Origin: a virus
Lineage: Duplodnaviria > Heunggongvirae > Uroviricota > Caudoviricetes
Virus record (IMG/VR): IMGVR_UViG_3300000228_000007
Length of the DNA stretch: 64,000 bases
Direction: 5' to 3' (one strand)
Made by a program: the position numbers and the translations under genes
Shown: piece after piece, positions 14,727 to 56,523 of the stretch
Numbering within the stretch: the stretch's first letter is position 1
How the letters are laid out: each line of letters begins with the position of its first letter
The notes under the pieces: model-generated
Database searches by the model: none
The model's input: the letters and a program-made list of their open reading frames with translations, nothing else
Told to the model about the DNA's origin: nothing

Positions 14727-17700
14727 ATGTTGAAAAAGATAATATTATCATTCATGACAATCCTTTTGGTAACACAAGGTATTTTTGGTATTGCTAAAGC
14801 AGATGAAATAGATGAATTAAAACAAGAATGGAGAAATATATGAAATCAAATATCAACTATACAAGTTAAGTTAGATAATGATTGATCTTTGTATATGCTT
14901 CCTACATATGCTAATATAAAAAATTTATGAGGATTATTACCAGGTTGATGTATTGATGCGGATCTTTTATCAAGTTCTATTGAAGATAAAACAAATGGAG
15001 CTTATCGTATTAACTGTACCAATGAAATAACATTTAAAAATCTACTAAAATTATTACAAGTAACAACCACTCATTCAATTTATGGTAAGGAATTATCTGA
15101 TTTATATATTCCTAAATACTTTATTCTTGAACAAGAAATAAACGTTAAATCAACAAAGGTTTCTATAGATTCTCTATGAAGAATTTGGTATAATAATCCT
15201 GAAAAACAATCTATCATAAAAATTTTTGATCCAGATTTTTGAAATGATTCAGATTGAAATGAATGAACTTATGAAAAAACATTATATAAATATGATTCTT
15301 TTACTCCAAATACTTGAATTGAAGTATTTTGATTAGATTGAGATAGATTATCACCAGAAACGTTAAGAATGTGAACTTATTCAATAGAGCATTATATGAC
15401 ATCTGATGAAAGAGATAAAGCTTATGATTCAACACCATTATTTTGAAGTTCTACAAATACCTTAAAATACACATTAAATTATTTTAATGATTTAATGGAA
15501 GAAAAAGCATTTCGTGAAATTTGTAATAAAAATACATTAACAAATTTATATAAAAATGATGATTTAGCAAATACTATATCTATTAGTTTTCGTAATTTTT
15601 TAGGAGAATTAGATGATAGAGTTTCTATGATTAATAGTTGAGATTGCGGTGGAATAACATGATTAAGAACAACAAATTGAAGTGCAAATTCAGCATATAT
15701 AAAAGATAATTGATCTATAAAAATAAATGTCAGTGGAACAACGCCAGTATTGGATATACTAAGATCAACAACTAATGATTGGAATTCTACAAATAAAGCC
15801 GGATGAAAAGTATGGTTGGCTAATATTGATAAAAATCAATCAGATGGTGATTGGATTAATATTAATGTTCCTAATGTTTGAGTTATATGAAATAAAAGAA
15901 ATTATAGTTCTACTGATAATTCTTTTATTAAAGAATGGTTAAGTGGTAAAACGGTAAAATTATATTATTTAGTTAAAATGACTTCCTATTTTCCATGAAA
16001 ACCTGATTTATATAATAAATATACGTCTTGATTAGATCCCATGAATAATGATTGGTATGATTATAATAATCACTCATGAAATTTACCAAAAAACTATTTA
16101 TATGCATGACACGTTTCAAAAGTTTCAGGAGGTCGTGATTGAGTTTGAGATGCTAACTATTTCGTAATGTTATGATCTAAAAGTCTAGGTAATCCAGAAG
16201 CATCAACAATATATGCATTATCAGCACCTTGATATTCTCAAAAATGAAGTAATATTAGAGATCGATTAACAGATGATAATACTGCTGCTAAAACGCGTGC
16301 TCAGAATTTACATTTAAATATATCTCAATGATATATGGAAACTGAAAGATCTAATAAATCAAATAAATGACCTGACATTACGTTATTGAGTCCAGTTCGT
16401 AATATACCAGATCCAAAAGGTAATACTGTTCATCATTTATTTAGAAATTATGATGCAGATATGGAACTTAATCCAACGTCTAATACTAATAATTATGAAC
16501 AAAATTTAAATTATGTATTAGCTTATGTTTCAAATACTTCAACATTAGCATTTGCAAGAAATTCATTCTCTGCAGACTGATTATTAAATTGAGTGTCTAT
16601 TGCTTCAAAATTTTGGTATAATACATCACAGGATAATGAATTAATTCAAAGAAGTTGAAGCGATGTCTGTTCACCAGATATTAATAATGGAACTTTCTGG
16701 GGTTGATTATATTCATTATATGATTCTTTTAGTGCAAGTTCATGTCCTGATATTATTCAAAAACAAACAATAAGTTCAAATTATAATTGATCAAATTTTT
16801 ATCAACAATTTGAAGCTTGATTAACAAAAGAGTTATGATGATCTCAAACATCAGAGGGTTTATTGCTACAAACAATATTAAATGCTTGAGATGTAGAAGT
16901 TTATAATCAAATTTACACTAATACAAACTATGTTGTTTGATTACCCAACAAGGACCCTATAAAATGTAAAATAGATTTATATAAAATCCCTGTAAAAAGC
17001 AACTTTTGATATGATAATATTTTTACAAGTAAAAAAGATTTATCTACTGATTTGGTTTATTCTACTCCATCAAATATATTTACCAGTAGCCCTGCATCAT
17101 ATGTAGACACTACTATATTAAATTCATTAATGTGAAAAACTTATAATAAACCTGCTGAAACTGCATATAATAATTCTCAATACAAAGGTTCTTCTTGAAA
17201 TGAGCAGGAGTGGCTTTATGGTGAAAAATGAATTGTCACATATAAATGTATGAAAAACAATCAAGATGATGATAATATTGCAGTAACTGTTGTTACATCA
17301 GATAAAAAATACATAAAAACTTGAACAAAGTTTATAGAACAAGCAAATACAAATAAATTATCAACACCACTATTTACATTTAATACAGGGTCTTACTTAG
17401 GTTATAAAAGTAGTGTAATAGAAAGTGATTCAACTGTTTCATCATGAATTCCTTTTGATAATACAAATTGTTCAGCGTGATTTAATAATAATTATATAAT
17501 AAATAACACAATATGATGATTTAATTATACAAAATTAAATGATGCTACATCATGAATTCCCGCTTGAAACACAAGAATTCTTTGAACTTGTCAGGTTGGT
17601 AGATTAACAAAAAATCAATGATTATTTAGATGAGGTATTGAGGTGCAAACAGCAGCGCAAACAACTTTTTGAGCTGTAAAAACTTATGGTAAAATTGACG

Positions 17701-20700
17701 TAATTATTTATGATAAAAATCGTCCATGACAAATTATTGATCAAAAAAGTTATTATATAACTACAACAAAAAAAGATTCAATGGTTATAAGTGCTGATGG
17801 AAAAAATGCTAAATGGACTGACACTACAGCTCGTGGTTCAATAAACCATACTGATGGTATTACTTTCACTATGCAAAATAATTCAACATCTACTATAAAT
17901 TCTACCGACACAACAACATGACTTAATTTAATCATATTTCCTATACAAGCAGCAAAAAAAGCTACGTCAGGAACAATTAATAATTGAGCTTGAATTATAG
18001 GTGCATTAGCATCTTGTACGGCTAATAATGTTGATTGTTGAAATTTAAATGGTTATACAAATACAACTAACTGAATAAAAACTTATTCACAAGATGGTAC
18101 TGCTTATTTAGATTGAGTTTTAGGTGCATGAAATACCGCTTCTCCAAAACTTTCTATTGCTATAAAATCACGAAATTGAAATATTATAAATAATACAATA
18201 GTTTATAAAACAACAAGACATGCTACATCTATTGCCTATGCAATATGAATATCTTGAACACCAGCAACCGAAAAATTTTTAAGAATAATTTTACCTGCTA
18301 ATTATTCAAAATTATGACCTGGTGAAAAAATTGAAGTAACATTAAAAGCTAATACAAATGCTTTTACTGCTATAAATTGGATGAGACCAGAGCAATCACA
18401 AGAAGTAAACCAAGCAACTGCATTTACAGTAATTTGATTAGATGGTTCTACTTTTTTACCTTGAATTAGTTATGCTAATTATAAACCAATAATTATGAAA
18501 ACCATAGCAAATGCTGCTAATCCAGCCGTTTGTAATATGGAATTTCCAACTGTTTGTAGTTGAACAAAATGTATTTGGTCGAGTTGAGATGGTAGAAAAC
18601 TTTACTTATCTGAAGAAGGTATTAGAGCCATTACTGGTGTTCCAACTGCAAAGTGTTGAGATAATATAGGTTGAATAGTTCGTGAATGTATTATTAAAAC
18701 AACACCTAATATATATGCTTGAAATGTAGCCGAAACTACGCCTTATACAGTGCCTTCAAGTGTTTCTTCACCTCAAAAATGAGCATTATATAACTTTTTG
18801 GTTTGATTTGAGTATAAAATGAGGAATTATATAGCGCCAACCTGATATCAATTTGATGCAACAAGATTGTCACCAAAAGCATTCGAAGCAATATATCCAT
18901 TAAAATGAACACCTAGAGTTGTATTTAATGATATAAGTTCTATTGAAAAGAGAAAAGTCATAAAATTTACACAAAACAGAAATAAAGCAATATGACTATC
19001 TCAAGCATCTACATCATCATCTTTAAGTCACACTAATTTTGGTTGAACACCAACATTAACTGCTAAGTCAGTAGCATGATTAACTTCTTGAACTCAAACT
19101 GCCGTAAATAGTATATTTAAGTATCCGAACTTCTGTAACGGTTCAACTGCAAATTGTGATACGACTGCTACTCCATTATGAAATATAAATAATAGTATTT
19201 ATTATTGAGTAAAATGAGTATCTAATGGTAATTCACAAGCAACGGCTTTTATTGAATTTTCATGAGATTCATCTAATTTAATAAACGGATTAGATTTTAG
19301 AAATACTACATGTAAAGTTTGAACAGTAGATTTCGTTACGGCAGATCCACCACCATCACATGGTTATTGTAATGTTTTAAGTCAAGAAGTTCCTAACGGA
19401 TCTAATAATATAAACGTATGTGACCCTAATGCTTCATGAATAGCTACAAACAACTCAATATCACTTGAAGAAGATTTTATACCTTGAAATTATGTTAAGT
19501 ATATACTTCAATGCTGAAATGATGGTTGACAAGATTTTGAATGAGATTTAGAATTTAATATCTCAAATTTTTCAAACTATGCATTAAACGCTTCGTATTT
19601 AATAAGTAATGGTTGAAGTCCATCTATATCAACAACATCAAATTCAGTTAAATTAGAAGGTGTTACTATCCCTTGAAATTCAACATCAAATGTCGAATTA
19701 ACTGTAAACCTAAAAACAAGAACTCCAAGTTGTCCTGATAATTTGCCTGATATGACAACAAATGCAAAACTAACATCTGCAACTTTTCAAAGTGATTTAC
19801 CTTCAACAACAAACTCATTATCATTTAGGGAATGTAAAGTTCCAACATTAAACCTTAACTGAGTTAGAGTTACTGACTGAAATGTTAATAATGATATAAT
19901 TCAAGACAGTTATACTAGTGCTTATCCATTTGAGTTTTCTCAATGTGGAAATCAATTAAGATACGAACTAGAGTGAAACTATGAATGTTATGAACCAAAC
20001 TCTGCTAAAATAAGTGTAACATATGATGTATGAAATAAAACTGATGGAATATGATTATGAAGAGATCCTGTATCAAGTATTTTTGCTTGAAATTTATATA
20101 CAGTTGCTCCAAATATAATATGAACCACATGAGTTAATTGGAATATGTGATGATATAATCATGTGTGAAGCCCATCAGGTTCTTTTTGACCGAGTGTATC
20201 AATTAATCCAACAGCATGATGAGATTTTAGAATGACAAATTCTTCATTTACGGTTTCAAATGTTGGTTCTCCTAATACGAAGATTAAATCACCTACTGGA
20301 GCATTTACTAAAATAAATTCAACACAATGGTTATCTTCACCTATGAATATGCAAATTGGTTTAGACCCAGTAGTTTCAGGTCAAAAAATTTATGATAATT
20401 GAATATATCAAGATACAGACTTTAATACTGTAAAATTACATAAAGAAGAAATTGATGGAACATCAAAAAAAGTTATAAAAACTTGAACTGGAAATTATGA
20501 ACCTATTATATTTGAGGCAAAAGTTGATAACCCTATAAAAAACCAATCAACATATTGAATGAGCCAATTAATGTTTGATATGTCATTAAATCCAAATACA
20601 GCTTCTTACTTTGATAAGGTTGATACAAATATTCCTACTTCTTGAAGCAATATATATGTAAAATATTGAGAACCATTATGGCAAAATCAAATTTTAGCGC

Positions 20701-23700
20701 CGGGGAATTCAATAAGTTATAAATGATGATTTAATGTAATACCTAATTTAAAAACACCTAATTTAACTCCTGCAAACACTTTATATCAAGCAAACTGAAC
20801 TCCTATGTTAAAATTTGCCAATGATCAAGGTGTGGCGTGTAATTTTAATCAATGATTTACGAATTGGACAAGTGAAATAATGAAAAATCCTATAACTATA
20901 TCAAGTATAACATTTGCCGATGAAGCACCTAATTCTATAACACCTGCTACAGATGAAATATCAGGAACTCCATTTGAACAACACTTACCTTGAGATACTA
21001 TATTATTAAACATATTGTTTAATAACAATAACTCTACAAGAAACTTTAATGATACTTATGTAAAATTTACATTTGATAATACATGAAGTTGAAAAATTGA
21101 TGTTCCTGCTATGAACTTTGATTTCACAAAAATATTTACAGTTCAATGAGTAGAATCTTGAGGGTGGATTACATTAAATGATAATTCTGCAAAATGTAAA
21201 GTTACGGCTACAACATTAATGTGTCAATTGATAGATAAAATAAATTATCAATCTACAAAAACATTAAAAATACCTTTACTTATAAATATAGAAAGTAATT
21301 TCTATCAACAATTAAAAACACAACCAAATACTAAAAATTGGAAATATTGGTATCCTACTGTGATTTCAAAAATTGAATATGGAACTCCTGATTTGAACTT
21401 AATAAATAATGTTGTTTATTATACTTCTTGAGAAAATGAATTACCTTCTGGTTGAATAAGAGATGATATTGAAACAGATGACTTCAATAATCCAATAAAC
21501 AAAACTCTTCCTGCTGAACCATTAGATTGAAAATATTCTTTCTATGTAGGTATGCCATATGCATCTATTGTAACAAGCTATTATAACGCTTCCGTTTGAA
21601 ATATATCACCTTGAGATATCTTGGTTTATAAAACTAAGATATCTAATATAGGTAAAGCATCTTTAAAAAATCCATATATTTTACAAAATCTATTTCCATT
21701 AGGATTAAAGGATAATTGGGTCGATGTTGAAGTTAATAAAGTAAGATTTACACCAAGATTAAATAAAACAAATATTTGACCTGAGGTAACAATAGACTTT
21801 AAAGCATTGAATACTGATGCTAACGCTACTAATGATGTTGATGTAAAAAATATTTGAATAATAGCGTTTAAAGAATGATTAGATGTCGATAAGTTTGATG
21901 TTTCTGTTTGAAATAGAATTGATACAAAGGCTGATAAAGAATTTGTTTTAATAGACGGTTCAAATACATTAACTGACGGTTGAGATATTGAACTTACTAC
22001 TGAAATGAAAATAGTAAAATTAAAAAATGGGAAAAGACCACAAATTGATTGTACTTCTCCTACCTCATGTTTGAGAGCAAATAAAAATCCTAAATCAGAA
22101 GAAGTGAGATGAGCAATAGATTTACCATTTGTATGAACATCAGTAGATGAAAATGATACTAAAACATATAGTGTTCATTTTCCTATATTAAAATCACAAT
22201 TATTTGCTAAATCATGAAATGATTATAGATATACTGACTGAGCAAATGCTGAAATTAAAGGTATGTTAAATAATGATAATACTACGGTAACATATAGACT
22301 TGATAACTTTATATCTCAAGAGTATACAAATCACAATACTGAAAAAATAGGTAAAGCCAGAAATGTTAAATCATACGTAAGACTTCCTATGTGAGTAAAA
22401 TATGTTCCAGGTAGTGTTAAAAGAATTGATAATATAGTTGACGGTGTTAATGATCCCTTATATAATACGATAACTCCTTTAGTAACAGATCCAATAATAA
22501 CAGAATACTCTGATTATGGACTTATTAATTGGACTTCTACAAATACATTTGATAATACGTTTTTAACAAACACTGATTGGAACAAAGTTCCTGGTTCAAA
22601 TGATAATCAATTTCAATATATGAAATGAACGCCATTTAAGTTTAATTACTTTAATAGAAATTATAACTATTATAGAATTACTGATGATGGTGCATTAACA
22701 TTGGGATATGTTGTAGATCCAATAAATCCTACAAATTTGAATGAATCACAATTCTATACAGATAAAAGAAATTGAACAATGCATACTACGTGACCAGTTA
22801 GTATTACTTTTGATAGAATTAAACAATGATTAATAATACCAAACGGATTACAATATACTAACGAAAAATGAGAATATAAATTGTCAGATGGTATAAATCC
22901 TATTACTGTATGAAAAAATTCTACTATTACTTTAAATGGTAGTAATACGGTATCGTTTACACAAGGTCTTGAAGGTGTAACTTACATTTGAAGTAATGTT
23001 GATATATTTAAATCAAATATTGATTATAATACCATTGCTACACAATGGAAAAATTATGCTATAATATCACCTGCTTTCATAAAACTTGATTTAACTAAAA
23101 AATCAGAACATGGTGTTTATGAAAAAGTAGTTAGAGATTGAGCTTGAAAAGTTACGGAAATATGGTATCAATGGTTTGGTTATGTTGAATGAACTAATAA
23201 AGAGGTTAAGTTTGGTATAGTATTATATAACTGAACTAAATATAATAATATTAAATTTATTTATGGTGATATAGATAATACCTTAACTATACCTATAATA
23301 TCTTGATTATCTTCATGAAGATGAAATGTTTCTTGAACATATTCTTTTAGTTCTTATAATGGATTACAATTAAGAAATCTTTCAAATAAGGATGATATTG
23401 AATTTGATGCATCACCAGTAAATGTGTATCAAGAATTAGTATTTGATGTATGATATCCTGCAGATTGAGCAGATGCTGTGAGTGATCCAGTAGTAATGTA
23501 TCAAGAAAAGAATTCATTAGGGGCTTATGTAAAATGACCTGGTAAAGACCAAACTTCATACATATTCCAATTCAATGTAAGAATTACTACAACAGATTTA
23601 GTATGTTGAAGCGAATACTCAACATCAGATGGTTGAAATACTCTTTCTTGGGGTAAAATATCTTCTTCAAGAAGTGATAAGGATGATATAGACCAATTCT

Positions 23701-26015
23701 GTTTTTCTTCATTAAAACCTTCTATAAAAATACTGGATAATGGTTCTTATTCAAGATGAGGTTATAAAACATCATCAAATAACTGTACGGTTAATCACTT
23801 ATCTCTTATGTGATTTAATGCAAGAGCAATCTGATGGAATAAATCATTGACATCAGCATGATGTTGGCTAACTTATAATATTCAAAATGTTCAAAAAGAC
23901 CTTTCAATAAATACAATATCTCCTTATGACTTATTGGCAAAATTCAAAGAAAAAACTGATATTAGACCAGTAGATACTTCACTAACATTGAATGATAAAA
24001 AAATAACATTTACATTATCAAAAGATATAAAAGTTAAAACTTCAATGTGAACATATATAGATATAAATACTTATATTCCATGATTTCAAAATCTTGGTTT
24101 CAAAATCTTAGCAAAAAATGTATTCTTTATATATGGTAATGATTCTACTAATTGATACTTATTAAGAAGTTCAAATGAATGAGATTCTTATGATATAATA
24201 TATAAATCAGTATGAAAGAAAATAGTAAAATCATATATATCAGATATATTAAATATTATATTCTTCAATGATTGAAAATTTGTAAGAGATACAAATGGTG
24301 GTTCTTGACCTTGGTCTTCAATGATGACATTGGTTGATTACAATTGAATAAATGATATATGATTTTTAAGTAGTATGAATTGATTTGTGTTATGAAACAA
24401 TTGAATTATGTGGAAAACTCAAGATGGGGGTCAATCATTTGAAAAAATTAACTTAAAAGTTACTAATAATCTTTGAATAGGGGAAAGTATTACAAGTATT
24501 GATACGTATGGATGAAAAGATATATGGTTATCTACCTCGCTTTGAAATGTATTATATAGTTCAAATGCATGAACTCTATTTACAAAGAAAACTTCATGAG
24601 CTAGTGTTGATACTAAAATATTCTGATATGAAGATTGAGCTCAAACAGCTGTTAATGTTAGTGTAAATAATGTAGTATGAAATACTATGCAAGGCGTAGA
24701 TACTATTGATAATGGGATGTCTATTAAATTTGACAACCTTAACTTTATGCTTACCGGAAAATGATACAAATGAGTATCAACGATCATCCCCGCAAATGGT
24801 GAAATGTTGCATTATACAACGACTAATATAATTGACTTTACTCCCTATATTACAAATAACTATGTTAATGCCGATTTATATTTAGATGTTTATGTTTCAA
24901 ATATAGAAAAGACAGGAGATTTATGAGATATCGTATTTAAAGATAATGGTCAGACAACAACTTTGTGAATAAGTGATGTTAAACAGTTCAATATTGATGG
25001 TTCAAATACTTTGAAAACTTGATGGAATACCATTAAAGTTCCTGTAAGAAATTTAAATACTCCTTGAAAATGGGATCAAAGTTGAAATAACTGGGCTAAT
25101 ATAAGTCGTATTGAAATATGGAATATTCCTTCCGCAAATAAAAATATGCAAGGTTCATACTTTGTAGTAAGTAATCTACGCTTAGCACCTATTACAAATC
25201 TTTCGAATATACAAACTGTATATTTATTTCCAGATTGAAATATGTCAAAAGTAGTTCAAGATGAAATTATAAGCTTTAATGGTGTTGCTAATACAAGTAA
25301 TAGATTTTCATTATCTGCATTCAAAAAATCAGATAATACATTAGACTGATACTTAACATTAGACTTATATGTTTCTGATACATCTGCTGAATTTCCAAGA
25401 GCATTAAAGTTATGAAATTCTAATAATAATGCTATTATATGGAATAATCTTGCTACGTTTGTAAAATGATGAACAGTTAAATCTTGATGGAATACTTTAA
25501 TATTACCATTTAAAGAAACCTGAAATTCAAATATTACTTATACTAATAAGTATGATATAAATTGGTGAAGTATTGATTTATTTAAGATATTCATGTATAA
25601 TACGACTCATACAAAATATTCATTATTCGCTATTGATAATATAATATATTCATCAACTGCAAATACTTCGTTTAATTTTATAAGATTCTTTAATACAAAA
25701 GAATGAGTTGCTTATGACCAAAATAAAACATATATAACATCTGATAATATTACTTGGTGAAATAATGAAGTTCATACAGAACCATGATTATCATTCATTA
25801 ATATAGTTAGATTGAAATGACGTGAAGTTTATGGAGTTGCAAATTCGTCAAATGGTTGGATATCATATTACTCATTAGACAAATGAAAAAACTCAAAAAA
25901 ATATTCTTCTGCTTCTTGAATTAACTTTAACTCTTTTGATGCTTTTGACTATGATTATTGATTTTCAATATCAAGTAATAATAAACTTTATAGAATGGAT
26001 TTAGTCCCAAATTAG
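14727..26015 (+). CDS. giant secreted surface protein (~3,760 aa), N/S/T/G-rich with repeated C-terminal modules
   Basis: A single frame-3 ORF from ATG 14727 to TAG 26013-26015 when TGA is sense; track fragments 16386-16580 and 21219-21431 share the frame. Signal peptide MLKKIILSFMTILLVTQGIFGIAKA. No TAA/TAG was seen on manual read-through. C-terminal modules repeat the motif G(W)NT(I/L)..P... Confidence 0.7.
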
Positions 26016-29977: not shown

Positions 29978-30667
29978 TTAAATTAAAAATAACTTTTCTA
30001 TGGCTTGTTTTTCTCCAGTATTTTTTGTTAAACTACTATTTACTGATTTTTCCCAAACGCAAGTAAAATCTTCTGGTGCATTATATTCACTAACAAATAT
30101 TTTATGTCATTTCTTTTTCATATTTCTACACCATTGCCAAAATTCATCATGATTAAAATTTCAATTCAAATATTTCGTAGTTCATTTATACGGTGGATCG
30201 CAATAGATAATACTTTCTTTTGGTATTTTTAATTTTTTATAATCTATATTGTAAAACTTAATTCATTGTAATGATGGTTTTTGTTTATCTATATTTTTTA
30301 TAGCCTCTTTTGCATAATCCCTTTTTCAAATAGTATCTTTTCTATATTATCAAAAAAACTTTGCTCAATATGATAATTGAAATCAAGTAAATCAAACTAA
30401 CCAATTTGAATATTCACTTTTATTATCTTTAATTTTTATATATTTATCATGATTAACATATGGTGTTTTTTTATTCTTAAGCATCCATTTGAGTAGTGAT
30501 ATTAAATATTTATTACTATCATTTCCTATTCTATTTCAAGTTACTTTATCTATAACATTTGCTCATCAAACAAATGATTCAACATACCATTGTCAAATTA
30601 TTCTATCTTTAAGTATGATTGGTAATATTTCATTTGCAAATTTTCATTTGCTTCACATATATTTCAT
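29978..30667 (-). pseudogene. Dam/D12-family N6-adenine DNA methyltransferase interrupted by an in-frame TAA (30347-30349)
   Basis: N-terminal half MKYMGSKGKFANEILPII...FVGGANVI...NDSNKYLISLL and C-terminal half ...IIYCDPPYKG...IFVSEYNAPEDF are in the same frame, separated by one TAA. That TAA aligns with the Arg of the conserved FNVPFGRYK block. No ATG follows the TAA. Confidence 0.55.
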
Positions 30668-34932: not shown

Positions 34933-35970
34933 ATGAACTATATATGATCTAAAAAAAAATTATTAGAATTCTTAAATGAATCAATAAACCAAATAACTTG
35001 AAATAAATTTACAAGCATAGCAGATTTATTTGCTTGAACATGAATTGTAGGAAGGTTTTATAAGGGAAAAGGTAAAAAAGTTATTTCAAATGATTTACAA
35101 TATTATTCATACGTATTGAATAAATGATATATTGGAGTTAAAAGCATTTATAACTTACAGTTTGAAAAACTTTGATGATTTGATAAAGTATTTGAATCAT
35201 TAAATGATTTACCAGGAAATAAAGGCTTCATGTATAATAACTATTCACCTTGAGTCGGAGAGATAACGCATTGAAGAATGTATTTTACAAATGAAAATGC
35301 AAAAAAATGCGATGCTATAAGAAGCAAGATTGAAGAATATAAAAATAATTCTTTAATCTCTGAAGACGAATATTTCTTTTTATTAGCTTCTTTAATAGAG
35401 AGTATTGATAAAGTGTCAAATACTGCAGCTATCTATTGAGCTTACTTAAAACAATTCAAAAAATCAGCATTAAAAACTTTTATATTAGAGCCATTAATAT
35501 TTGATGAATGAAAATATGATAATGTAATATATAATAAAAACGTTAATGATTTAATTAGTGAATTAAGCCATGTAGACGTTGTTTATTTAGATCCACCATA
35601 CAATGAGCGCCAATATGCTTGAAACTATCATATACTTGAAACAATCGCTAAATATGACACACCTGAGATTACATGAAAGACATGAATGCGTAAAGAATCA
35701 AATAAATCAAAATATTGTTCAAAATCAATAGTAAAAAAAGAGTTTGAAAATTTAATAATGAATATTAATTCTGATTATATTTTTGTATCTTATAACAATG
35801 AATGATTGTTATCTATTGAAGACATGGAAGAAATATTATCAAAAAGAGGAGAATACGGTCTCTTTAAAAAAGAATATCAAAGATTTAAGTCTGATAAAGA
35901 TGTTAATAGAACTTTTTCTGATAATAAGACTTATGAATATCTCCATTACGTAAAATGTAAAAAAGACTAA
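34933..35970 (+). CDS. Dam/D12-family N6-adenine DNA methyltransferase (intact)
   Basis: MNYIGSKKKLL (YxGxK), DLFAGTG (motif I), VYLDPPYN (motif IV), and a following ...FVSYNNEG block. Confidence 0.75.
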
Positions 35971-39516: not shown

Positions 39517-39530
39517 ATTTGTTACATAAT

Positions 39531-40069
39531 TACTTTATAAAGTATAAAATATAGTCTGAATCTGTGTAATTTTTCAAAAATCAATTCAATTTTTTACATT
39601 TTTCAAATCAATCAATTCAATATGTATATAAATTGTTATCATTCATAATTTCTTTATCAAAGATATATGATCCATAGGGAAGTAATAATGATAATTTATT
39701 AAATTCAATATATCATCAAAATTGACTTACTGTAAAATCATATATTTTACCATTACTTTCACACCAGTAATGTCAACTATTTCACAAAAAATCACATGAG
39801 CCATCATCAAGTCATTCTCTTAAACTTCAACTTTTAATTACTATATCAAAATTATTTCAAAAGTATATTTTACATAATTTATAAAATATATAACTTGCTG
39901 ATATACAATCTTGATAATTAATATTATCATCCACCATATCCCATAAACAACTTCAACCAATGTAATTTGCAAATGATTGAGCGACTGTTTCTATATGCAT
40001 TTTCTTATAGGTTACTAATAAAATTAAATTATATTCTTTACAATAATTTCCATTCTTTCAAAAATCCAA
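39531..40069 (-). CDS. transglutaminase-like cysteine peptidase (tentative), probable TTG start
   Basis: Minus-strand ORF immediately downstream of the RM-like gene. It carries G-N-Y-C-K-E-Y and a later GHYWCESNGKIYDFT resembling the transglutaminase-core Cys ... HxWxE...D signature. The first ATG is internal (40000); the frame opens at a TTG. Confidence 0.3.
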
Positions 40070-40157: not shown

Positions 40158-42471
40158 TTACTTATTTGTAAGATTATAATTATTAAGATCATCGATAATT
40201 TGATTTATGTATTGTTCAATATAAATCCAATCTGGAACTATATTATTTTCTAAGTCTTTTGTTACAGGTAAATATATTTCTAACTTATTCAATTCATTAT
40301 CATTTATACCTTTATCGTGATTAAACTCTTCTTTAAATTTTTTCATCATTGTAATAATGAATAATCAATGATTTTTATTAAATTTATTATAATTACTTTT
40401 TAATACAATGATTGATGATGTTTTATAAAATTCTTCTTCTTGATAAAAAGCTAATCAAGCAGCGCCATCCCCATTTTTAACTAACGTTAACCTGTTTCAC
40501 TTAAATGGTTGTTTAATACTTTTTATCTTTTTCATTGAAACGGCATTATTATATTTTGCCGCAATCACTAAATTAGTGTTTCATAATTCACTTGATTGAG
40601 ATGATTCAATACCTCAAATTTTATCAATACTAAACATATCCATAATTTTAAATTTATTCCAAAGTACATTAGATTCCTTGTTTGGATATACACAAATGTT
40701 ACTTTCACCTTCTAAAAATTTTAATACTTTATAAGAATTAGATATAATTTCTGAACCATCTTTTTTATAAACTATATTTGAAAGTGGATTTTTAAATAAA
40801 AAATATTCAATTACCGATGCCCTAAATAGTTTTTCATTGAATAAATATTCATTTAATGGTAAATGATATTTGATATCATCAGTAGGTTTAATCCACTGTA
40901 TAGAATCGTCTCCACTTTGTTTATATATAATATCAACCCATTTATTTTCCAATGATTGCCACTTATTATTTATATCTAACCTTCCTTTGTTTTTTACAGA
41001 TACTAAACCATCATCTTTAATCCAACACGTAAAAATATCACTATTATTTTGTGGAACGTGTGCTTTAAAAATAAAAATAGAAGTATTAACATTAGCCATT
41101 CATGAAAAAACATCAGGAAGTTTTATTATTTTTTGGAGTGAATGTTGATTAAATACTTTTTTAATCCAATTAATACCTATCCCGATTGATAATTTTGTAT
41201 CAGGTAAAATAAATGCACAAATAGCACCATTTTCTACATTATCTAATACATTTTTTACTATTTCTAAACATCCATAAGCATTTTCATATGGGGGATTCAT
41301 TAATACTTTTGTAATATTATTTAATTTAATCCAATTTCCAACACTTTCGGTTCTACTATCATCTTGAATTATATTAGTCTTTCAATCTTTATGAATAAGC
41401 ATATTTGCACAAGCTAATGCATATAATTCCTTCGAAAATTCAACACCAAATAATCTTTTTTCTTTAATTATTTCAACAGACTTATTATTGTTTGGTCATC
41501 CAACTTCATTAATCATATAAGACATTGCTTTTACTAAAAAAGCACCACTTCAACAACTAGCATCTAAGACATTATCCGTATAGTTAGTGCCTGTAATTCT
41601 ATAAATTAATGATGTTATATGATCTGGCGTAAATACTTGTCCTTGCTCAGATTTACCTTTATACCTTGTAAACTCATTAAAAAATATAGCCATTACATCT
41701 TCACCATTCCAGTAAGGACTATTTAAATTTTCAGATATATTATTAATACATTTTATAAAATCATTTATAGCATTTTGATTTTCAGTAGAATTACATTGAA
41801 TAATTTGGAACTGATCGGCAACCAAATCTAATTTAATATTTTGTTTTTTAACATCTTGGTAAGATTTTTTTATTGTTGATAAAATTGACGAGTGCAAAGT
41901 TGACCAATCCATATTTATTGACAAACAATTTTTATTATATCTTTGTGCTACTAATGCACAAGCTGTAAAAATCATTCTATGATATAAATTATTAATACCA
42001 AAATTTTTATGAAGATTATGGTTTATACTTTCTGTTAAAGAATATATTTGTTTTTTATTTATAATATTATTGTTATATAACGATATATAGTATTCTTTTG
42101 TAAATAATTGATTTTTTAAATTAACTAATATTTTATTTTTATAAACTATCACATCTATACCATTATACAAAATTCCAATTACTTTATCATATTTTGTAAG
42201 CGAAATATCTATATTTTTAAATAATTCTTGTTTGCAAGTATTTTTATTTATATCAATATCTGAATTTTTAGTTTCTAAAATTATAGCAACATCATCAAAA
42301 TTATTTGGTAAATACCACCCATCTGGTTTGTCAGCAATTCATTTAAACCCCAATTGATTAAATGTTGTTAATTGACCTACATCACATTGGCTATCTTTAT
42401 CTTGATAAAAATTTAATAAAATCCTTGCTTCATCGCGAACCTTGTCTTCTGTTTTTTTCATAATTATATAT
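40158..42471 (-). CDS. single-polypeptide RM-like enzyme: N-terminal PD-(D/E)xK-like motif, HsdM-like gamma-class N6-adenine methyltransferase, C-terminal HsdS-like TRD (Type IIG / Type I M-S fusion-like)
   Basis: One continuous minus-strand ORF of ~770 aa that joins track ORFs 41550-42170, 41100-41300, 40614-41099 and 40158-40349 through TGA codons. MTase core: GQVFTPDHITSLI (motif X), VLDASCGSGAFL (motif I, the G after C is TGA), NPPYEN (motif IV). C-terminal end ...LPVTKDLENNIVPDWIYIEQYINQIIDDL resembles an HsdS conserved helix. N-terminus has DKPDGWY ... ILETKN (candidate PD...ExK). Confidence 0.7.
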
Positions 42472-42506
42472 ATATAATAATATATATTATTATCATATAT
42501 TTTTAG

Positions 42507-42542
42507 AAAAAATCAATTTTTTTTAAAAAAAATTGATTTTTT
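42507..42542. promoter_or_regulatory. 36-bp perfect palindrome aaaaaatcaatttttttt|aaaaaaaattgatttttt in a divergent intergenic region
   Basis: Read directly. It sits between the minus-strand RM-like gene start (42471) and the plus-strand gene start (42596), next to an (AT)n tract. Confidence 0.45.
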
Positions 42543-45700: not shown

Positions 45701-46778
45701 TTATTTTTAATTAATAATTTGTAATTACTAGATGTTCTACATCTTTATTCTTTTCATTTCTCCTACGCACTTCATATGCATATTTTTTATCAAAGAATTT
45801 TATATTAATTCATTCTTTATTGTATAATTCAAATATAAAATCTGTATTTTTTATTACAACCATCCATTTACAATTTATTTTTATAAGACAATCTCTTAAT
45901 CTTACCTGATCGTTTTTATTAAATTCATTGTTATCATATTTTGAAAATTCCGTATCATAAGGAGGATCTAAAAATATAAAGTCATTTTCAGTAAATGATT
46001 TATCATATTTTGAAATAAAATCATAAAAATCAAGATTGTTTATATTAGTATTATTGAATAATTCAATAGTATCCTTTTTTGTTATTTCATTTATTTTTGA
46101 AAGTATATTCTTTCAATTATAAGAAGTTCAACCATAAGGTATATTAAATTCTCCTTTTGAATTATATCTAAACATTGATGCATAACAAAACTCTCTAACG
46201 AAAAACCAATATGCTGAATATTCAATATTAGAAATTCATTTTTTATATACTTTATTGATAATACCTCTAAAATACATATAAATACCTCATTTTACAGCAG
46301 TTTCTATATGATCGTCTAATTCTTTATTATTAAATACTTTTCATTCCTTCACAAATATAGCCAAAAGCCTCTTTTTTTTCGATTTAACAGATTTTATAAT
46401 CTCTTTGTACAGTTCGTCAGTAAAAACATTTGAAGTATTACTAAGCTCAATATTTTGACTTGTATTATCATATGAAAAAAAATCTAATAACTCTTTTTTA
46501 TTACTAATAATAAAATCATTACTTGCATCCCATTCTTTATTTACAATATTTAGGTAATTGATAAACTTAACATCTTTTACAGATGTGTAAAAGTTAATAA
46601 GATCAACACTTCTGTCATTTATATAATATGATTTTCATAATTGTTTATTTTGTAATTGAAAAAATACTCAACCACCTCAAAAAAATGGTTCAAAATATCT
46701 ATCAAACTTTGGTAAAAACGCTTCAAAAAATTTGAATTCATCAAATTTTCATCAAGTCCATTTAAGTAGTGGTCTCAT
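45701..46778 (-). CDS. Dam/D12-family N6-adenine DNA methyltransferase (third copy, intact)
   Basis: MRPLLKWTGGKFDEF (FLKWAGGK-like), EPFFGGGGVFF (motif I), FNIPYGG, FLDPPYD (motif IV). Confidence 0.75.
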
Positions 46779-48703: not shown

Positions 48704-49456
48704 ATGAAAACTAAATTTGGAGATAGAATGAAACGATATGAAAGTGAGCTTAATTATACTGTTGATACAACTAAATATACAGTTTTAAGACTCGACTGAC
48801 ATTGATTTTCAAAATTTACTAAAAAATTTGAAAAACCATTTGATATGAGAATTTATAATATCATGAACAAAGTAGTAGAAGATTTATTTTATGAATTTAA
48901 TCCGATAACATGATTTACTCAATCTGATGAAATAACGCTAATATTCAAACCTTCAGAAAATTTTATATATAATGGTAGAATAAATAAGTTGCTTTCTTTA
49001 ACATCGGCTTTTGCAACTGCTCGTTTCAATTTTTATTTATCTCAAGAATTAATAGGTTCTAATGATGAAATTCTTATTAATAAAATTTGATTAGCATTTT
49101 TTGATTGTAGAATTATGTCTATGCCTAATGAAACAGAAGCATTTAATATGTTGTTATGGAGAATGAAAGATTGTGCTACAAATAGTAGAAATACTTATTC
49201 ACAAGAATATATATCTTATAAAGAACTACAAGGTGTTGCAAGTTATGATGCTATAAAAATATGCAATGAAAAAACTTGAAACGATTGGAATAATTTAATA
49301 GAAGGTCTTAAATATTGAACATTATTTAAAAAAGCAGACTTTATAAATAATGAAGGCTTTTTAAGAACAATCGTTAAGCAGTTTCATATTGATATGTCTT
49401 TTAGTGAAGAAATGGTAAATTTTATGCTTTTAGACAAGATACCCTTAAATAATTAA
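48704..49456 (+). CDS. Thg1-like protein (tRNA-His guanylyltransferase family; 3'-5' nucleotidyltransferase)
   Basis: YTVLRLDGHGFSKFTKKFEKPFDMRIYNIMNKVVEDLFYEFNPITGFTQSDEITLIF matches the Thg1 N-terminal signature (RxDG..FhkF....KPnD ... SDE), with G of RLDG and HG as TGA. Start and stop verified. Confidence 0.7.
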
Positions 49457-52909: not shown

Positions 52910-54526
52910 GTGAAACAAATAACCATAAAGCAATCGTTTGAAGATATTATTATTAATAATAATCTATACATAGATAAAACTAATTCTATTTATAAGTTGA
53001 TTAATTCTAACGATTCTGTCTTTTTGAAAAAACCGAGAAGATTTTGAAAATCTATGCTAATATCAACTTTATATTCACTATTTTCTTGACGTGAAGATCT
53101 TTTTGATTGACTTTATATAAAAGAGCAAACGAATTATGATTTTGCAGAATTCCCTATTATTTATATAACATTTGCTAACTTTAAGGCATCTGAATATAAT
53201 GATAAACTTGAGTATTATTTTAATGAAAATATATATATATCATATGAATGAACTTTATATAATAGACATGATTTTAATATTGAAACAAATACATTGGGCG
53301 AACTTATAAAAAAAATTTATAATAAATTCTGAAAACAAGTTGTATTATTAGTTGATGAATATGATAAAATAGCAACAGAAAACTTTAATAATAGTAAGTT
53401 AAATGACTATATTGATATACTGGATTGATTTTACTCTTGAATTAAAGAAGCCTCTTTACAAAGATACTTAAAGTTTACATTAATCTCTTGATTGACTAAA
53501 ATCCTTTCAAATCATTTACTATCAACACTCAATCATTTAAATGATATTTCAAACGATTATAGTTTTTATTCTATTTGTGGATATACAAAAGAAGAAATTA
53601 TAAATAATTTTGATCAATCAGAAAATGACTATTTACCGTTATTAGCTTTAAAAAATAACAATACTATTGAAAAAGAACTACAAAATATTAAAAACTTTTA
53701 CAACGGATATAACTTTTGAAATGAAAATGATTTGATTTATAATCCATATTCTATAAATTTATTATTTGATAAACAAACATATGACTATTATTGGTCAGAT
53801 ACATGAAGATCCTCTTTAATTGTAAACTATTTATCAAATGTTTCAAAAGATGATTATAATGAAATTATAGAAAAAATTAAGAAATGAAAATTAACAAATA
53901 TTTGAAGTCATGATATTTTAGAATTAAAAAATAGTACTGATAGTACATCTATTTGAACGTTGTTATATATAACTTGATATTTAACTTATAAACAAGGTAA
54001 ATACGTTCTACCGAATAAAGAAACAAGAATTTCTGTAATACAAGATTTTATAAACATAGTTTATTGATATAATTCAAAAAAATCAAAAATATTAAACTAT
54101 GATGGTCGTAATATTATTGAATGATTATTAGAAAATGATAAATATTTACTTTCTGAATGATTAGAATGATTAAAATATTTATTAGTAAAAACAGTTTATC
54201 AATGGCAATTTTGAAATCCTGAAGGTGTTTTAAAAATCAGATTACAAGATATGTTTGAGCTTGGTTTGAATTATAACTTTCAAGAATTACGTATTGAAGA
54301 ATCTACTAATGATGGTGATGCAGATATGATTATAATAGATAAATATAGAAATACTGCTGTTATTATAGAAGCTAAATGATCTGAAAAATTAGAAAAAGCA
54401 ACACATCAAGCCATAGAACAATATATGCCATTTTATAAAGCAGATGGTTATAATGTAATAATTTTTTGAATTAGATGGAATAAAGATAAACAAGAGCTTA
54501 CTTATACTGAACCACTATTTTATTAA
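52910..54526 (+). CDS. predicted AAA-ATPase (PF09820-like) fused to C-terminal PD-(D/E)xK nuclease (PDDEXK_9-like); probable GTG start
   Basis: N-terminus VKQITIKQSFEDIIINNNLYIDKTNSIYKLIN...VFLKKPRRFGKSMLISTLYSLF matches the family consensus (F..i....YVDKT..I..L......FLsRPRRFGKSL). C-terminus NDGDADMIIIDKYRNTAVIIEAKG carries D...D...E.K. The frame opens directly after a TAA; the first in-frame start is GTG. Confidence 0.65.
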
Positions 54527-54988: not shown

Positions 54989-54995
54989 CATAATT

Positions 54996-56523
54996 ATCTT
55001 TTTAAGTATTTTGAACCGAAGTTTTCAATTTCTCTTACAATATTATTATCCTTATATGAATCTAAAGCATCAATGTATTGGAATATTTTGTCTGACCAAC
55101 CTTGAACAAGGTAAACATTATTCATGTTTGAAACCTTTGTACCATATCATCCAACATCAAAAATGAAACATTTTATATTAGGATTAACTTGGTTCATGTA
55201 ATTTTTAAGTTCTTTTTCAACATTAGCAACATCACAAGAAGAGTTATACATTTGACTATCAGAAAAGAACATTATTGTGTCTACGAATAGATTTCTTTTT
55301 GTAAGTTCTTGAATTGCCAAGTATCCGTTAGTTGAATAACCAACTTCACCATCTCGATAAGAATCAAATATATCAAAAGCACCAGTAGGATTTTTTAATT
55401 TAACTGAATCACCGAAAACACCTGCAACACTGTATGGAGAAACTGTTGCCGCAATACCAGTATATAACAGTCCTATATCTATCATTTTTACTGTAGATTT
55501 TGGGTGTATATTATCGGTCATAGAACCTGAAACATCTGCAAATACAGCAATTCTATTGCTTAATTTAGTGTTTTTTACAGAATATAAAACAGCCGTAGAC
55601 AATGCTTTTTTAATTACATTAGAATATAAGTTATTTGGTAAATTCTTATATGCAGAATAAAAACGGAAAGGTAATTGTTTTGAATTTTCAACAGCATTTT
55701 CATTAGAAATGTAATTTGCTATCATAGAAACAAGGTTATCAGCGTCATCTCTATTTACTGAAGCAAATTTATCTGCAACTTCAAGAATATTTCTTAGATT
55801 TCTAATTGTGGCCATATAACCAAGTTTTTTGTTTAAAACAAGATCATACCATACATAAAACACATCAGTAAGGTATGTTTCTGTATTTTTTGGAATAGAT
55901 GAAATAATCCTTTCCCAAGTATAAGGTTTTTCTACTGTGCCATCTAATACTTTTTTTGCAAGAACTGAATTTGGATGTATGATACGAACAACATCTTTTA
56001 GATTAATAGCATAGTTTCTATCATATTTTCCAATTTGATACTCATCAAAATTATTAAATGCCTTAGCAAGACCTTTAATTAATGAGTGCGATAAAGCACC
56101 ACTTTTTGCTCTTTTGTTTACTTTACCTTCTGGTAATAGGTATCCTAATATTTCAACAATATCATCAATTCTTTCAACAGAATCAGCAATTAAATCGCTA
56201 AAATAAGCATTTTCACCATTAAAGTATTGTGAAAGTTCACCAATAATCACATGGCTCATTGTACGCATATTATAAACTTGTCTAACGTAAAATGCTAATC
56301 CAAGTACGAAAGAAGGATTTTTATAAGCTAATTGGCTTATTAAATTTTTAATTTTAACAAGTCTATCATCTTCTTTTTCATAAAAAGAGTCAGTTAAAAA
56401 GTTGGAAACAACCGCTCCAAGAAGTTCAAGTTCCAAAGATAAAGAATAAGCCCTTTCTCCTTCATGATTTACTGTAACGTTATTTACAGTATTCATTACA
56501 TTTTTTGATCCGAATTTTGGCAT
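54996..56523 (-). CDS. rsr: Ro60/Rsr ortholog (TROVE domain + vWA/MIDAS)
   Basis: Track ORF 55147-56523 extends through TGA to TAA at 54996-54998 (~509 aa). vWA MIDAS ADVSGSM is present. Overall length and architecture match Ro60. Confidence 0.75.

What the first reader, a model, noticed from the sequence alone, without database searches (positions are those of the whole stretch)
40158..42471. Single-polypeptide RM-like enzyme: HsdM-type gamma-MTase core with C-terminal HsdS-like TRD and a possible N-terminal PD-(D/E)xK motif
A ~770-aa ORF carries motif X (GQVFTPDHITSLI), motif I (VLDASCGSGAFL) and motif IV (NPPY) in gamma-class order, followed by ~250 aa ending in an HsdS-like conserved helix. 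The N-terminal 80 aa contain DKPDGWY...ILETKN, which fits PD-x(n)-ExK. No separate hsdR or hsdS gene is adjacent. The architecture resembles Type IIG/IIL (MmeI-like) enzymes or an M-S fusion. A transglutaminase-like Cys peptidase gene lies immediately downstream on the same strand.
Basis: partly seen in the sequence, partly recalled or inferred. Interest (0 to 1): 0.6.

Follow-up and report, generated by a model that had tools for sequence, protein, structure and literature searches.

The report
Single-chain Type IIB restriction-modification enzyme
This gene encodes an ordinary but intact one-protein restriction-modification enzyme (DNA cutter, DNA methylase and one DNA-reading domain in a single chain) of a known, widely mobile kind, in a bacterium that reads the stop codon TGA as glycine.

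The parts
40158..42461 (-). Complete CDS, 767 aa plus TAA stop, read with genetic code 25 (10 in-frame TGA = Gly)
   Evidence: identical to JGI protein P0001 apart from W/G at the TGA codons
42072..42461 (-). Residues 1-130: PD-(D/E)xK endonuclease domain (alpha-beta-beta-beta-alpha-beta-beta-beta)
42264..42332 (-). Catalytic motif DKPDGWY...x...ILETKN (P46, D47, E63, K65)
   Evidence: Invariant in 53 homologs; D47 lies just before strand 48-52, and E63/K65 at the end of strand 58-64; coordinates
41712..42071 (-). Residues 131-250: multi-helical connector, equivalent to the HsdM N-terminal helical region
40857..41711 (-). Residues 251-535: gamma-class N6-adenine DNA methyltransferase domain
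41604..41642 (-). Methyltransferase motif X, GQVFTPDHITSLI (res 274-286)
   Evidence: invariant G274 Q275 T278 P279 H281
41535..41570 (-). Methyltransferase motif I (AdoMet binding), VLDASCGSGAFL (res 298-309); G304 is encoded by TGA
   Evidence: 52 of 52 homologs have Gly at 304
41286..41297 (-). Methyltransferase motif IV (catalytic), NPPY (res 389-392)
   Evidence: N389 P390 P391 invariant
40662..40856 (-). Residues 536-600: linker containing the conserved amphipathic helix 543-557; corresponds to the C-terminal tail of the unfused RM subunits
   Evidence: Most of the 14 short forms (10 of 14) end at about target position 587-624; F546 33/39, Y553 33/39, F556 32/39; helix in the model
40161..40661 (-). 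Residues 601-767: one target-recognition domain plus C-terminal conserved helix (LP...PDW.Y.E.YI), i.e. half of an S subunit
   Evidence: Pfam Methylase_S 599-753 E=8.5e-8; aligns to both repeats of the separate 351-aa S subunit (E=1e-12 and 3e-15); hypervariable, 25-33% identity, yet the helix motif is conserved (L731 38/39, P732 39/39)

Best explanation
The gene encodes a self-contained, ATP-independent restriction-modification enzyme of the BcgI-like Type IIB/IIG kind, in the HaeIV layout. The chain holds an N-terminal PD-(D/E)xK endonuclease, a helical connector, a Type I HsdM-like gamma-class N6-adenine methyltransferase, a tail helix, and one Type I-style target-recognition domain ending in a conserved helix. 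SHOWN: the three domains, their order, intact catalytic motifs, the absence of any helicase/HsdR or separate S gene, and that the C-terminus equals one repeat of the two-repeat S subunit that unfused relatives encode next door. INFERRED from what is known of BcgI, HaeIV and half-size Type I S subunits: two chains pair through the tail helix and the C-terminal helix, giving a four-helix bundle equivalent to (RM)2S. The two identical TRDs then read a symmetric bipartite site (half-site, about 5-6 unspecified bases, inverted half-site). With AdoMet the enzyme methylates one adenine in each half-site, preferring hemimethylated host DNA. [quoted passage not shown] It needs no partner methylase. Its role is defence of the host, or stabilisation of a mobile element.
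For: Domain calls: Pfam N6_Mtase and Methylase_S. PADLOC's best hits are Type IIG REase_MTase models, 1e-35 and 1e-34. The MTase body is closest to HsdM, then to RM.BsaXI and MmeI. Nuclease fold. Invariant P46/D47/E63/K65, motif I and NPPY. Short-form relatives (570-624 aa) are followed directly by an S gene and no HsdR. Of 80 genome loci, 50 are RM + separate S, 25 are fused and 5 are unresolved. The target C-terminus aligns to both S repeats. A fused relative's TRD is 50% identical (2e-48) to TRD1 of a separate S subunit. The catalytic body is conserved (56-71%) while the TRD is hypervariable (25-33%). The helices flanking the TRD are conserved. Literature: HaeIV is written '2 R~gammaM~[GAY]', a homodimer on symmetric GAY N5 RTC cutting both sides (PMC3874165; PMC4081073); HaeIV is 953 aa with a single TRD, and BcgI-type RM subunits are Type I-like with a C-terminal tail (supplement of PMC11997821).
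Against: No biochemistry exists for this protein or, as far as I could establish, for any close relative. Dimerisation, site symmetry, two-sided cleavage and the methylated base are all inferred. Sequence profiles do not detect the nuclease domain, so its assignment rests on predicted structure plus residue invariance. The full-length model was built from the code-4 translation (Trp at the TGA sites), and the domain model from a 70%-identical homolog.
Confidence: 0.7

Rival explanations
1. The same single-chain R-M-S enzyme works as a monomer like MmeI or BpuSI (Type IIG/IIL). Its one TRD reads a short continuous asymmetric sequence, it methylates one strand, and it cuts on one side only at a fixed distance.
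For: It has a single TRD and a single nuclease per chain. The nuclease domain is as similar to monomeric BpuSI and DrdV as to HsdR. MmeI and DrdV appear among whole-chain structural matches. PADLOC files it under Type IIG.
Against: The TRD is the same unit that relatives use in pairs in a two-repeat S subunit or as half-size S genes. The helices flanking the hypervariable TRD are conserved, which suggests an assembly interface. No MmeI-specific Pfam domains match. The methyltransferase body is closest to Type I HsdM, which works as M2S.
Confidence: 0.2
2. It is in effect only a methyltransferase (an M~S 'Type 1 1/2'-like orphan or epigenetic regulator), and its N-terminal nuclease-fold domain is catalytically silent or serves in DNA binding or regulation.
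For: Databases name family members only 'N-6 DNA methylase'. The window holds other solitary adenine methylases. BcgI itself is a strong maintenance methylase (PMC4081073).
Against: P46, D47, E63 and K65 are invariant across 53 sequences from many phyla, and the nuclease domain is 56% conserved on average. That is hard to explain without catalytic selection. The family's spread on plasmids, a Tn7-like element and viral contigs fits a selfish or defensive R-M system.
Confidence: 0.07
3. It is the M-S part of a Type I system that recruits an HsdR translocase-nuclease encoded elsewhere.
For: The methyltransferase body and the TRD are Type I-like.
Against: No HsdR is adjacent here or in any relative's locus examined. 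The protein carries its own conserved nuclease domain, which Type I M subunits lack.
Confidence: 0.03

Closest known systems
HaeIV (Haemophilus aegyptius), single-chain Type IIB/IIG enzyme, written '2 R~gammaM~[GAY]'
   Same: Same domain order and count: an N-terminal PD-(D/E)xK nuclease, a gamma N6-adenine methyltransferase and ONE C-terminal TRD in one polypeptide, with no partner methylase and no ATPase. HaeIV is dimeric, recognises symmetric GAY N5 RTC and cuts both sides (PMC3874165, PMC4081073, PMC3177199; single TRD and 953 aa in the supplement of PMC11997821).
   Different: The target is 186 aa shorter (767 vs 953). Direct sequence relatedness to HaeIV was not testable here. Specificity and cleavage geometry are unknown. 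The host uses genetic code 25.
BcgI-type Type IIB systems (BcgI, BaeI, SdeOSI, HpyUM032XIII, Hso63250II): RM subunit plus separate two-TRD S subunit, (RM)2S
   Same: The target's closest relatives have this two-gene layout: a 570-624 aa RM followed by a ~340-353 aa S, with no HsdR. They share the R-helical-M-tail organisation with a Type I-like methyltransferase (PMC11997821 Fig. 8 text).
   Different: In the target the S function is reduced to one TRD and fused to the RM chain. The RM part of this family is somewhat shorter than BcgI RM (637 aa). PADLOC Type IIG profiles align only from residue 138 onward, so the nuclease domain is divergent in sequence.
AloI / PpiI / TstI / CjeI single-chain Type IIB enzymes (R~M~TRD1-CR1-TRD2-CR2, about 1250 aa)
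   Same: Nuclease, methylase and specificity sit in one chain, with Type I-like TRDs.
   Different: Those carry two TRDs, read asymmetric bipartite sites and have a 'knob' insertion (PMC11997821). The target has one TRD and is about 480 aa shorter.
Half-size Type I S subunits and 'Type 1 1/2' methylases (M.AhdI, EcoDXXI-delta, EcoR124I-delta); EcoKI M-S fusion
   Same: A single TRD with flanking helices that dimerises to read a symmetric bipartite site. M~S fusions are functional (PMC3874165; PMC3510504).
   Different: Those lack a built-in nuclease domain.
BpuSI, DrdV and MmeI (monomeric Type IIG/IIL enzymes with solved structures)
   Different: They act on continuous asymmetric sites and cut one side. 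MmeI-specific Pfam domains do not match the target. The target's TRD belongs to the paired S-subunit type.

Membership tests
Type IIB/IIG BcgI-like R-M enzymes (HaeIV layout) | N-terminal PD-(D/E)xK endonuclease domain with intact catalytic residues | tested here: met
Type IIB/IIG BcgI-like R-M enzymes (HaeIV layout) | Gamma-class N6-adenine methyltransferase (motif order X, I, IV = NPPY/F/W) downstream of the nuclease in the same chain | tested here: met
   Pfam N6_Mtase 3e-21; motifs at residues 274-286, 298-309 and 389-392; HsdM-like by sequence and fold.
Type IIB/IIG BcgI-like R-M enzymes (HaeIV layout) | No ATP-dependent translocase/helicase domain or HsdR partner | tested here: met
   No helicase domain in the protein. 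None adjacent in the window or in relatives' loci.
Type IIB/IIG BcgI-like R-M enzymes (HaeIV layout) | Specificity from Type I-style TRD(s) with conserved helices; in the HaeIV layout, a single TRD fused at the C-terminus | tested here: met
   Methylase_S 599-753. Aligns to both repeats of a separate S subunit. One TRD only. Conserved flanking helices.
Type IIB/IIG BcgI-like R-M enzymes (HaeIV layout) | Detectable sequence homology to the type enzymes BcgI or HaeIV over the whole RM chain | tested here: inconclusive
   BcgI and HaeIV sequences were not retrievable. PADLOC REase_MTase_IIG profiles hit at 1e-35 and 1e-34 but cover only residues 138-512 and 253-495. RM.BsaXI is matched only in its methyltransferase part.
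Type IIB/IIG BcgI-like R-M enzymes (HaeIV layout) | [quoted passage not shown] | not testable with these tools
   Needs biochemistry or a methylome. Inferred from the architecture and from HaeIV (PMC4081073).
Type I R-M system (HsdR/HsdM/HsdS) | Separate HsdR subunit with SF2 helicase motor; cleavage far from the site | tested here: not met
   No HsdR in the window neighbourhood or in homolog loci. The nuclease is fused to M instead.
Type IIL MmeI family | MmeI-specific N-terminal, helical, TRD and C-terminal domains (Pfam MmeI_N, MmeI_hel, MmeI_TRD, MmeI_C) | tested here: not met
   None of these match the target at E<=1. Only a faint MmeI_Mtase hit is on record for some short relatives.
MADS methylation-associated defence system (MAD2 methyltransferase) | Score above the NCBIfam equivalog cutoff for NF047738 | tested here: not met
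   43.4 bits against a cutoff of 720, covering only the generic methyltransferase region 255-375.
Transglutaminase-like cysteine peptidase (claimed for the downstream gene 39530-40000) | Match to a transglutaminase-core or related peptidase family | tested here: not met
   No such hit in Pfam at E<=10, NCBIfam, PADLOC or PDB sequences. Its fold was not modelled.

The most novel reading that the evidence does not exclude
This protein and its more than 380 genome-borne relatives may form a compact BcgI-like subfamily with no biochemically characterised member. Its nuclease domain is invisible to current sequence profiles. It switches freely between three layouts (RM + two-TRD S, RM + half-size S, fused RM~TRD) while exchanging TRDs. 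If so, the 767-aa fused form would be among the smallest self-sufficient R-M-S enzymes, and a convenient scaffold for new or engineered Type IIB specificities.
Probability: 0.3. Interest if true: 0.35.

Novelty: new member of a known kind. Interest (0 to 1): 0.2.

Why it matters
It matters little for basic biology, because single-chain Type IIB/IIG enzymes with one TRD have been known since HaeIV (1999). It has three modest uses. First, annotation: the whole family is labelled only "N-6 DNA methylase" or "type I M protein" in public records, although it carries an invariant nuclease motif and should be treated as a restriction enzyme. Second, it is a worked example of how table-11 gene calling destroys genes in code-25 (TGA=Gly) bacteria. 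Third, the family's three interchangeable layouts, with shared TRDs, illustrate clearly how specificity modules are fused, split and swapped in R-M evolution. The compact fused form could also be a practical source of new Type IIB specificities.

Tried and rejected
(1) Table 11 ORF listing gave only fragments. Code 4 (TGA=Trp) restored ORFs but put Trp at invariant Gly positions, so it was rejected in favour of code 25.

(2) Sequence profiles for the N-terminal domain found nothing: Pfam at E<=10, and a 19-sequence profile against PDB sequences gave only chance-level hits.

I used the code-4 database copy P0001 for the full chain and a truncated standard-code homolog for the domain.

(5) MADS/MAD2 membership was rejected on score.

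(6) The promoter/terminator scan was uninformative in 22% GC DNA: 34 sites found against 36 expected, and no terminators. Whether the downstream gene is in the same operon is unresolved.

(7) The downstream "transglutaminase-like" gene has no supporting hit, and it is not conserved next to relatives.

(8) I asked whether the window is a phage. PHROGs found only nucleotide-metabolism genes and no capsid, portal or terminase among 10 proteins, and the gene has no match in IMG/VR, so the contig does not appear to be there. This is left undecided.

(9) There is no tRNA (so no tRNA-Gly UCA) and no Rfam family in the window.

Full report
OBSERVATION. The tool's table-11 ORF list shows only fragments between 40158 and 42471. 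The window is 20-30% GC. Reading TGA as a sense codon raises the number of ORFs of at least 150 aa from 6 to 47, and gives one 794-codon stop-to-stop frame on the minus strand at 40158-42542. Read as Trp (code 4), the TGA codons fall on the invariant Gly of methyltransferase motif I and on the glycines of a P-loop in a neighbouring gene. In the 767-aa CDS (ATG 42461 to TAA 40158-40160) there are 10 in-frame TGAs. All 52 homologs have Gly at three of them (residues 304, 322, 360), Gly is the commonest residue at 9 of the 10 (Lys at 616), and Trp never appears. Across my gene calls for the window, TGA (670) outnumbers all GGN codons together (411), and no gene ends in TGA. The window therefore uses code 25, known from Absconditabacteria/SR1 and Gracilibacteria. 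The only coordinate correction is that the gene lies on the minus strand and starts at 42461, not 42471.

WHAT THE PROTEIN IS. Pfam finds N6_Mtase (E=3e-21) and Methylase_S (residues 599-753, E=8.5e-8), and nothing in residues 1-250. By sequence, the closest solved structures are Type I HsdM subunits (StySJI M, 2okc, E=5e-16 with a family profile), and RM.BsaXI is matched in its methyltransferase part. PADLOC ranks Type IIG REase_MTase profiles first (1e-35 and 1e-34), just ahead of Type I MTase (1e-32), but those alignments begin at residue 138 or later. The NCBIfam MAD2 hit is far below its cutoff (43 vs 720 bits).

An AlphaFold2 model of the full chain has mean pLDDT 82.9 and pTM 0.70. It was built from a 53-sequence alignment with the database's code-4 copy of this protein as first row. 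It shows five parts: a confident N-terminal alpha-beta-beta-beta-alpha-beta-beta-beta domain (1-~115), a helical region (136-246), the Rossmann-type methyltransferase (to ~535), a helix at 543-557, and a beta-rich domain ending in helix 745-761.

THE C-TERMINUS IS HALF AN S SUBUNIT. A database search returns more than 5000 related proteins in two size classes: about 746-795 aa covering the whole query, and about 570-624 aa covering the first ~72-75%. In every short-form locus inspected, the gene is followed at once by a Methylase_S gene and there is no HsdR. On a Lactobacillus iners plasmid it is followed by two half-size S genes. Residues 601-756 of the target align to both internal repeats of such a 351-aa S subunit (residues 22-169, E=1e-12; residues 195-344, E=3e-15). 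The target therefore carries exactly one TRD-plus-helix unit.

Among the 80 best loci from one genome per species, 50 are RM + separate S, with S either ~340-353 aa (two TRDs) or ~170-180 aa (one TRD). A further 25 are fused RM~TRD (746-795 aa), 2 are short forms with no S matched, and 3 are incomplete. The TRD of a fused relative (P0011) is 50% identical (E=2e-48) to TRD1 of a separate S subunit, so the same TRD types circulate between layouts. As expected for a specificity module, the region after residue 535 is hypervariable (25-33% mean pairwise identity) while the catalytic body is conserved (56-71%). Within the variable part, two helices are conserved: the pre-TRD helix (F546 33/39, Y553 33/39, F556 32/39) and the terminal I-x-L-P...P-D-W-x-Y-M-E-x-Y-I motif (L731 38/39, P732 39/39). 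I read these as the assembly interface.

HOW IT MOST LIKELY WORKS. The literature describes three primary forms of Type IIB enzymes: BcgI (2 RM + S), AloI (R~M~TRD~TRD) and HaeIV (PMC4081073). HaeIV is written '2 R~gammaM~[GAY]': a single chain with one specificity domain that is dimeric in solution, recognises the symmetric site GAY N5 RTC and cuts on both sides (PMC3874165 Table 4; PMC3177199). In the recent BsaXI paper's table, HaeIV is 953 aa with 'TRD1' only, and BcgI-type RM subunits are 'Type I-like' with a C-terminal tail that joins the S subunit's conserved helices (PMC11997821 and its supplement).

The target has this architecture, and its family has the BcgI-type two-gene form. I therefore infer that two chains pair through helices 543-557 and 745-761 to mimic (RM)2S. 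[quoted passage not shown] The domain facts are shown. The oligomeric state, site symmetry and cleavage pattern are inferred.

The main rival (about 0.2) is a monomeric BpuSI/MmeI-style enzyme that cuts on one side of a continuous site. A methylase-only reading (about 0.07) is disfavoured by the invariant nuclease motif. A Type I M-S part awaiting an HsdR (about 0.03) is disfavoured by the absence of HsdR at every locus examined.

CONTEXT. The window comes from a 77-kb JGI metagenome contig (3300000233, TB_FS06_10DRAFT_1000015). Neighbours include two full-length D12-class (Dam-like) adenine methylases and one truncated copy, a CHAP domain protein, an M50B peptidase, topoisomerase I, UvrD, DnaG primase, a TROVE/Ro-like protein, a Thg1-like protein, an FtsK-RusA fusion and a 3762-aa ORF. 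There are no tRNAs or Rfam families in 64 kb. PHROGs found no phage structural genes in the subset tested, and no match to the gene was found in IMG/VR, so I leave chromosome versus mobile element open.

The family itself is clearly mobile. It occurs in Alphaproteobacteria, Campylobacter, Bacteroidales, Clostridia, Spirochaetes, Bifidobacterium, Tannerella, Capnocytophaga, Melainabacteria and others. It is cargo of a Tn7-like element in Aliarcobacter butzleri, sits on a Lactobacillus plasmid, and is on 44 IMG/VR viral contigs.

The 156-aa gene downstream (39530-40000, same strand, 157-nt gap) has no transglutaminase or peptidase match in Pfam, NCBIfam, PADLOC or PDB sequences. It is not found next to relatives, so nothing links it to the enzyme.

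VERDICT. This is an intact single-chain R~M~(one TRD) enzyme of the BcgI-like Type IIB/IIG kind, in the HaeIV layout. It is a new member of a known kind. It is of routine interest (0.2), apart from the annotation point that this large family is labelled only as a methylase.

Noticed in passing
window 1-64000: The whole window uses genetic code 25 (TGA=Gly). TGA is the commonest glycine codon (670 in-frame against 411 GGN), stops are TAA (46) or TAG (3), and GC is about 22%. Table-11 tools see almost no genes, and the JGI record translated the genes with TGA=Trp (P0001 has W at every TGA).
   Followed up: yes
window 34933-35970 (+), 45711-46778 (-), 30347-30667 (-): There are three D12-class (Dam-like) N6-adenine DNA methyltransferase genes within 16 kb of each other: two full length (345 and 355 aa) and one truncated (106 aa). 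No recognisable partner endonuclease was identified. With the Type IIB enzyme, this makes the region rich in adenine methylases.
   Followed up: partly
window 14727-26015 (+): A giant ORF of 3762 aa, with a signal-peptide-like N-terminus and rich in Asn/Thr/Ser/Gly, probably a surface protein. It was not analysed.
   Followed up: no
window 9868-12270 (+): An 800-aa protein combines an N-terminal FtsK/SpoIIIE-type P-loop ATPase region (E=6e-7) with two RusA Holliday-junction resolvase stretches (E=6e-20). This is an unusual fusion.
   Followed up: no
window 54994-56523 (-): A TROVE-domain (Ro60-like) protein of 509 aa. No Y RNA or any other Rfam family reaches the gathering score anywhere in the window, and there are no tRNA genes in 64 kb.
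   Followed up: partly
window 48704-49456 (+): A Thg1-like (tRNA-His guanylyltransferase family) protein of 250 aa, according to the precomputed Pfam hit on the source contig.
   Followed up: no
window 53054-54526 (+): A 490-aa protein with a predicted AAA-ATPase_like domain plus a C-terminal PDDEXK_9 nuclease domain. It may be another defence or mobile-element gene.
   Followed up: no
window 39530-40000 (-): The 156-aa Cys-rich ORF just downstream of the R-M gene has no family assignment (best hit Pfam YunG, E=0.037). Its fold was not modelled.
   Followed up: partly
L005 1-14325 (Aliarcobacter butzleri JAPZCO010000003.1): A fused 774-aa relative sits as cargo inside a Tn7-like element, between TnsA/TnsB/TniB/TniQ plus integrase fragments on one side and TnsE_C on the other.
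   Followed up: no
L009 3992-6796 (Lactobacillus iners plasmid pC0011D1): A 596-aa relative annotated 'N-6 DNA methylase' is followed by two consecutive half-size 'restriction endonuclease subunit S' genes (173 and 152 aa). This is a fourth arrangement of the same modules. It could be a split S gene or a heterodimeric half-S pair.
   Followed up: no
L001 1-3125 (Alphaproteobacteria MAG scaffold): The short-form RM + S pair lies about 3 kb from a type II CRISPR-Cas locus (Cas9, Cas1, Cas2) and next to a macro/ADP-ribosylglycohydrolase gene, so it sits in a defence-island-like setting.
   Followed up: no
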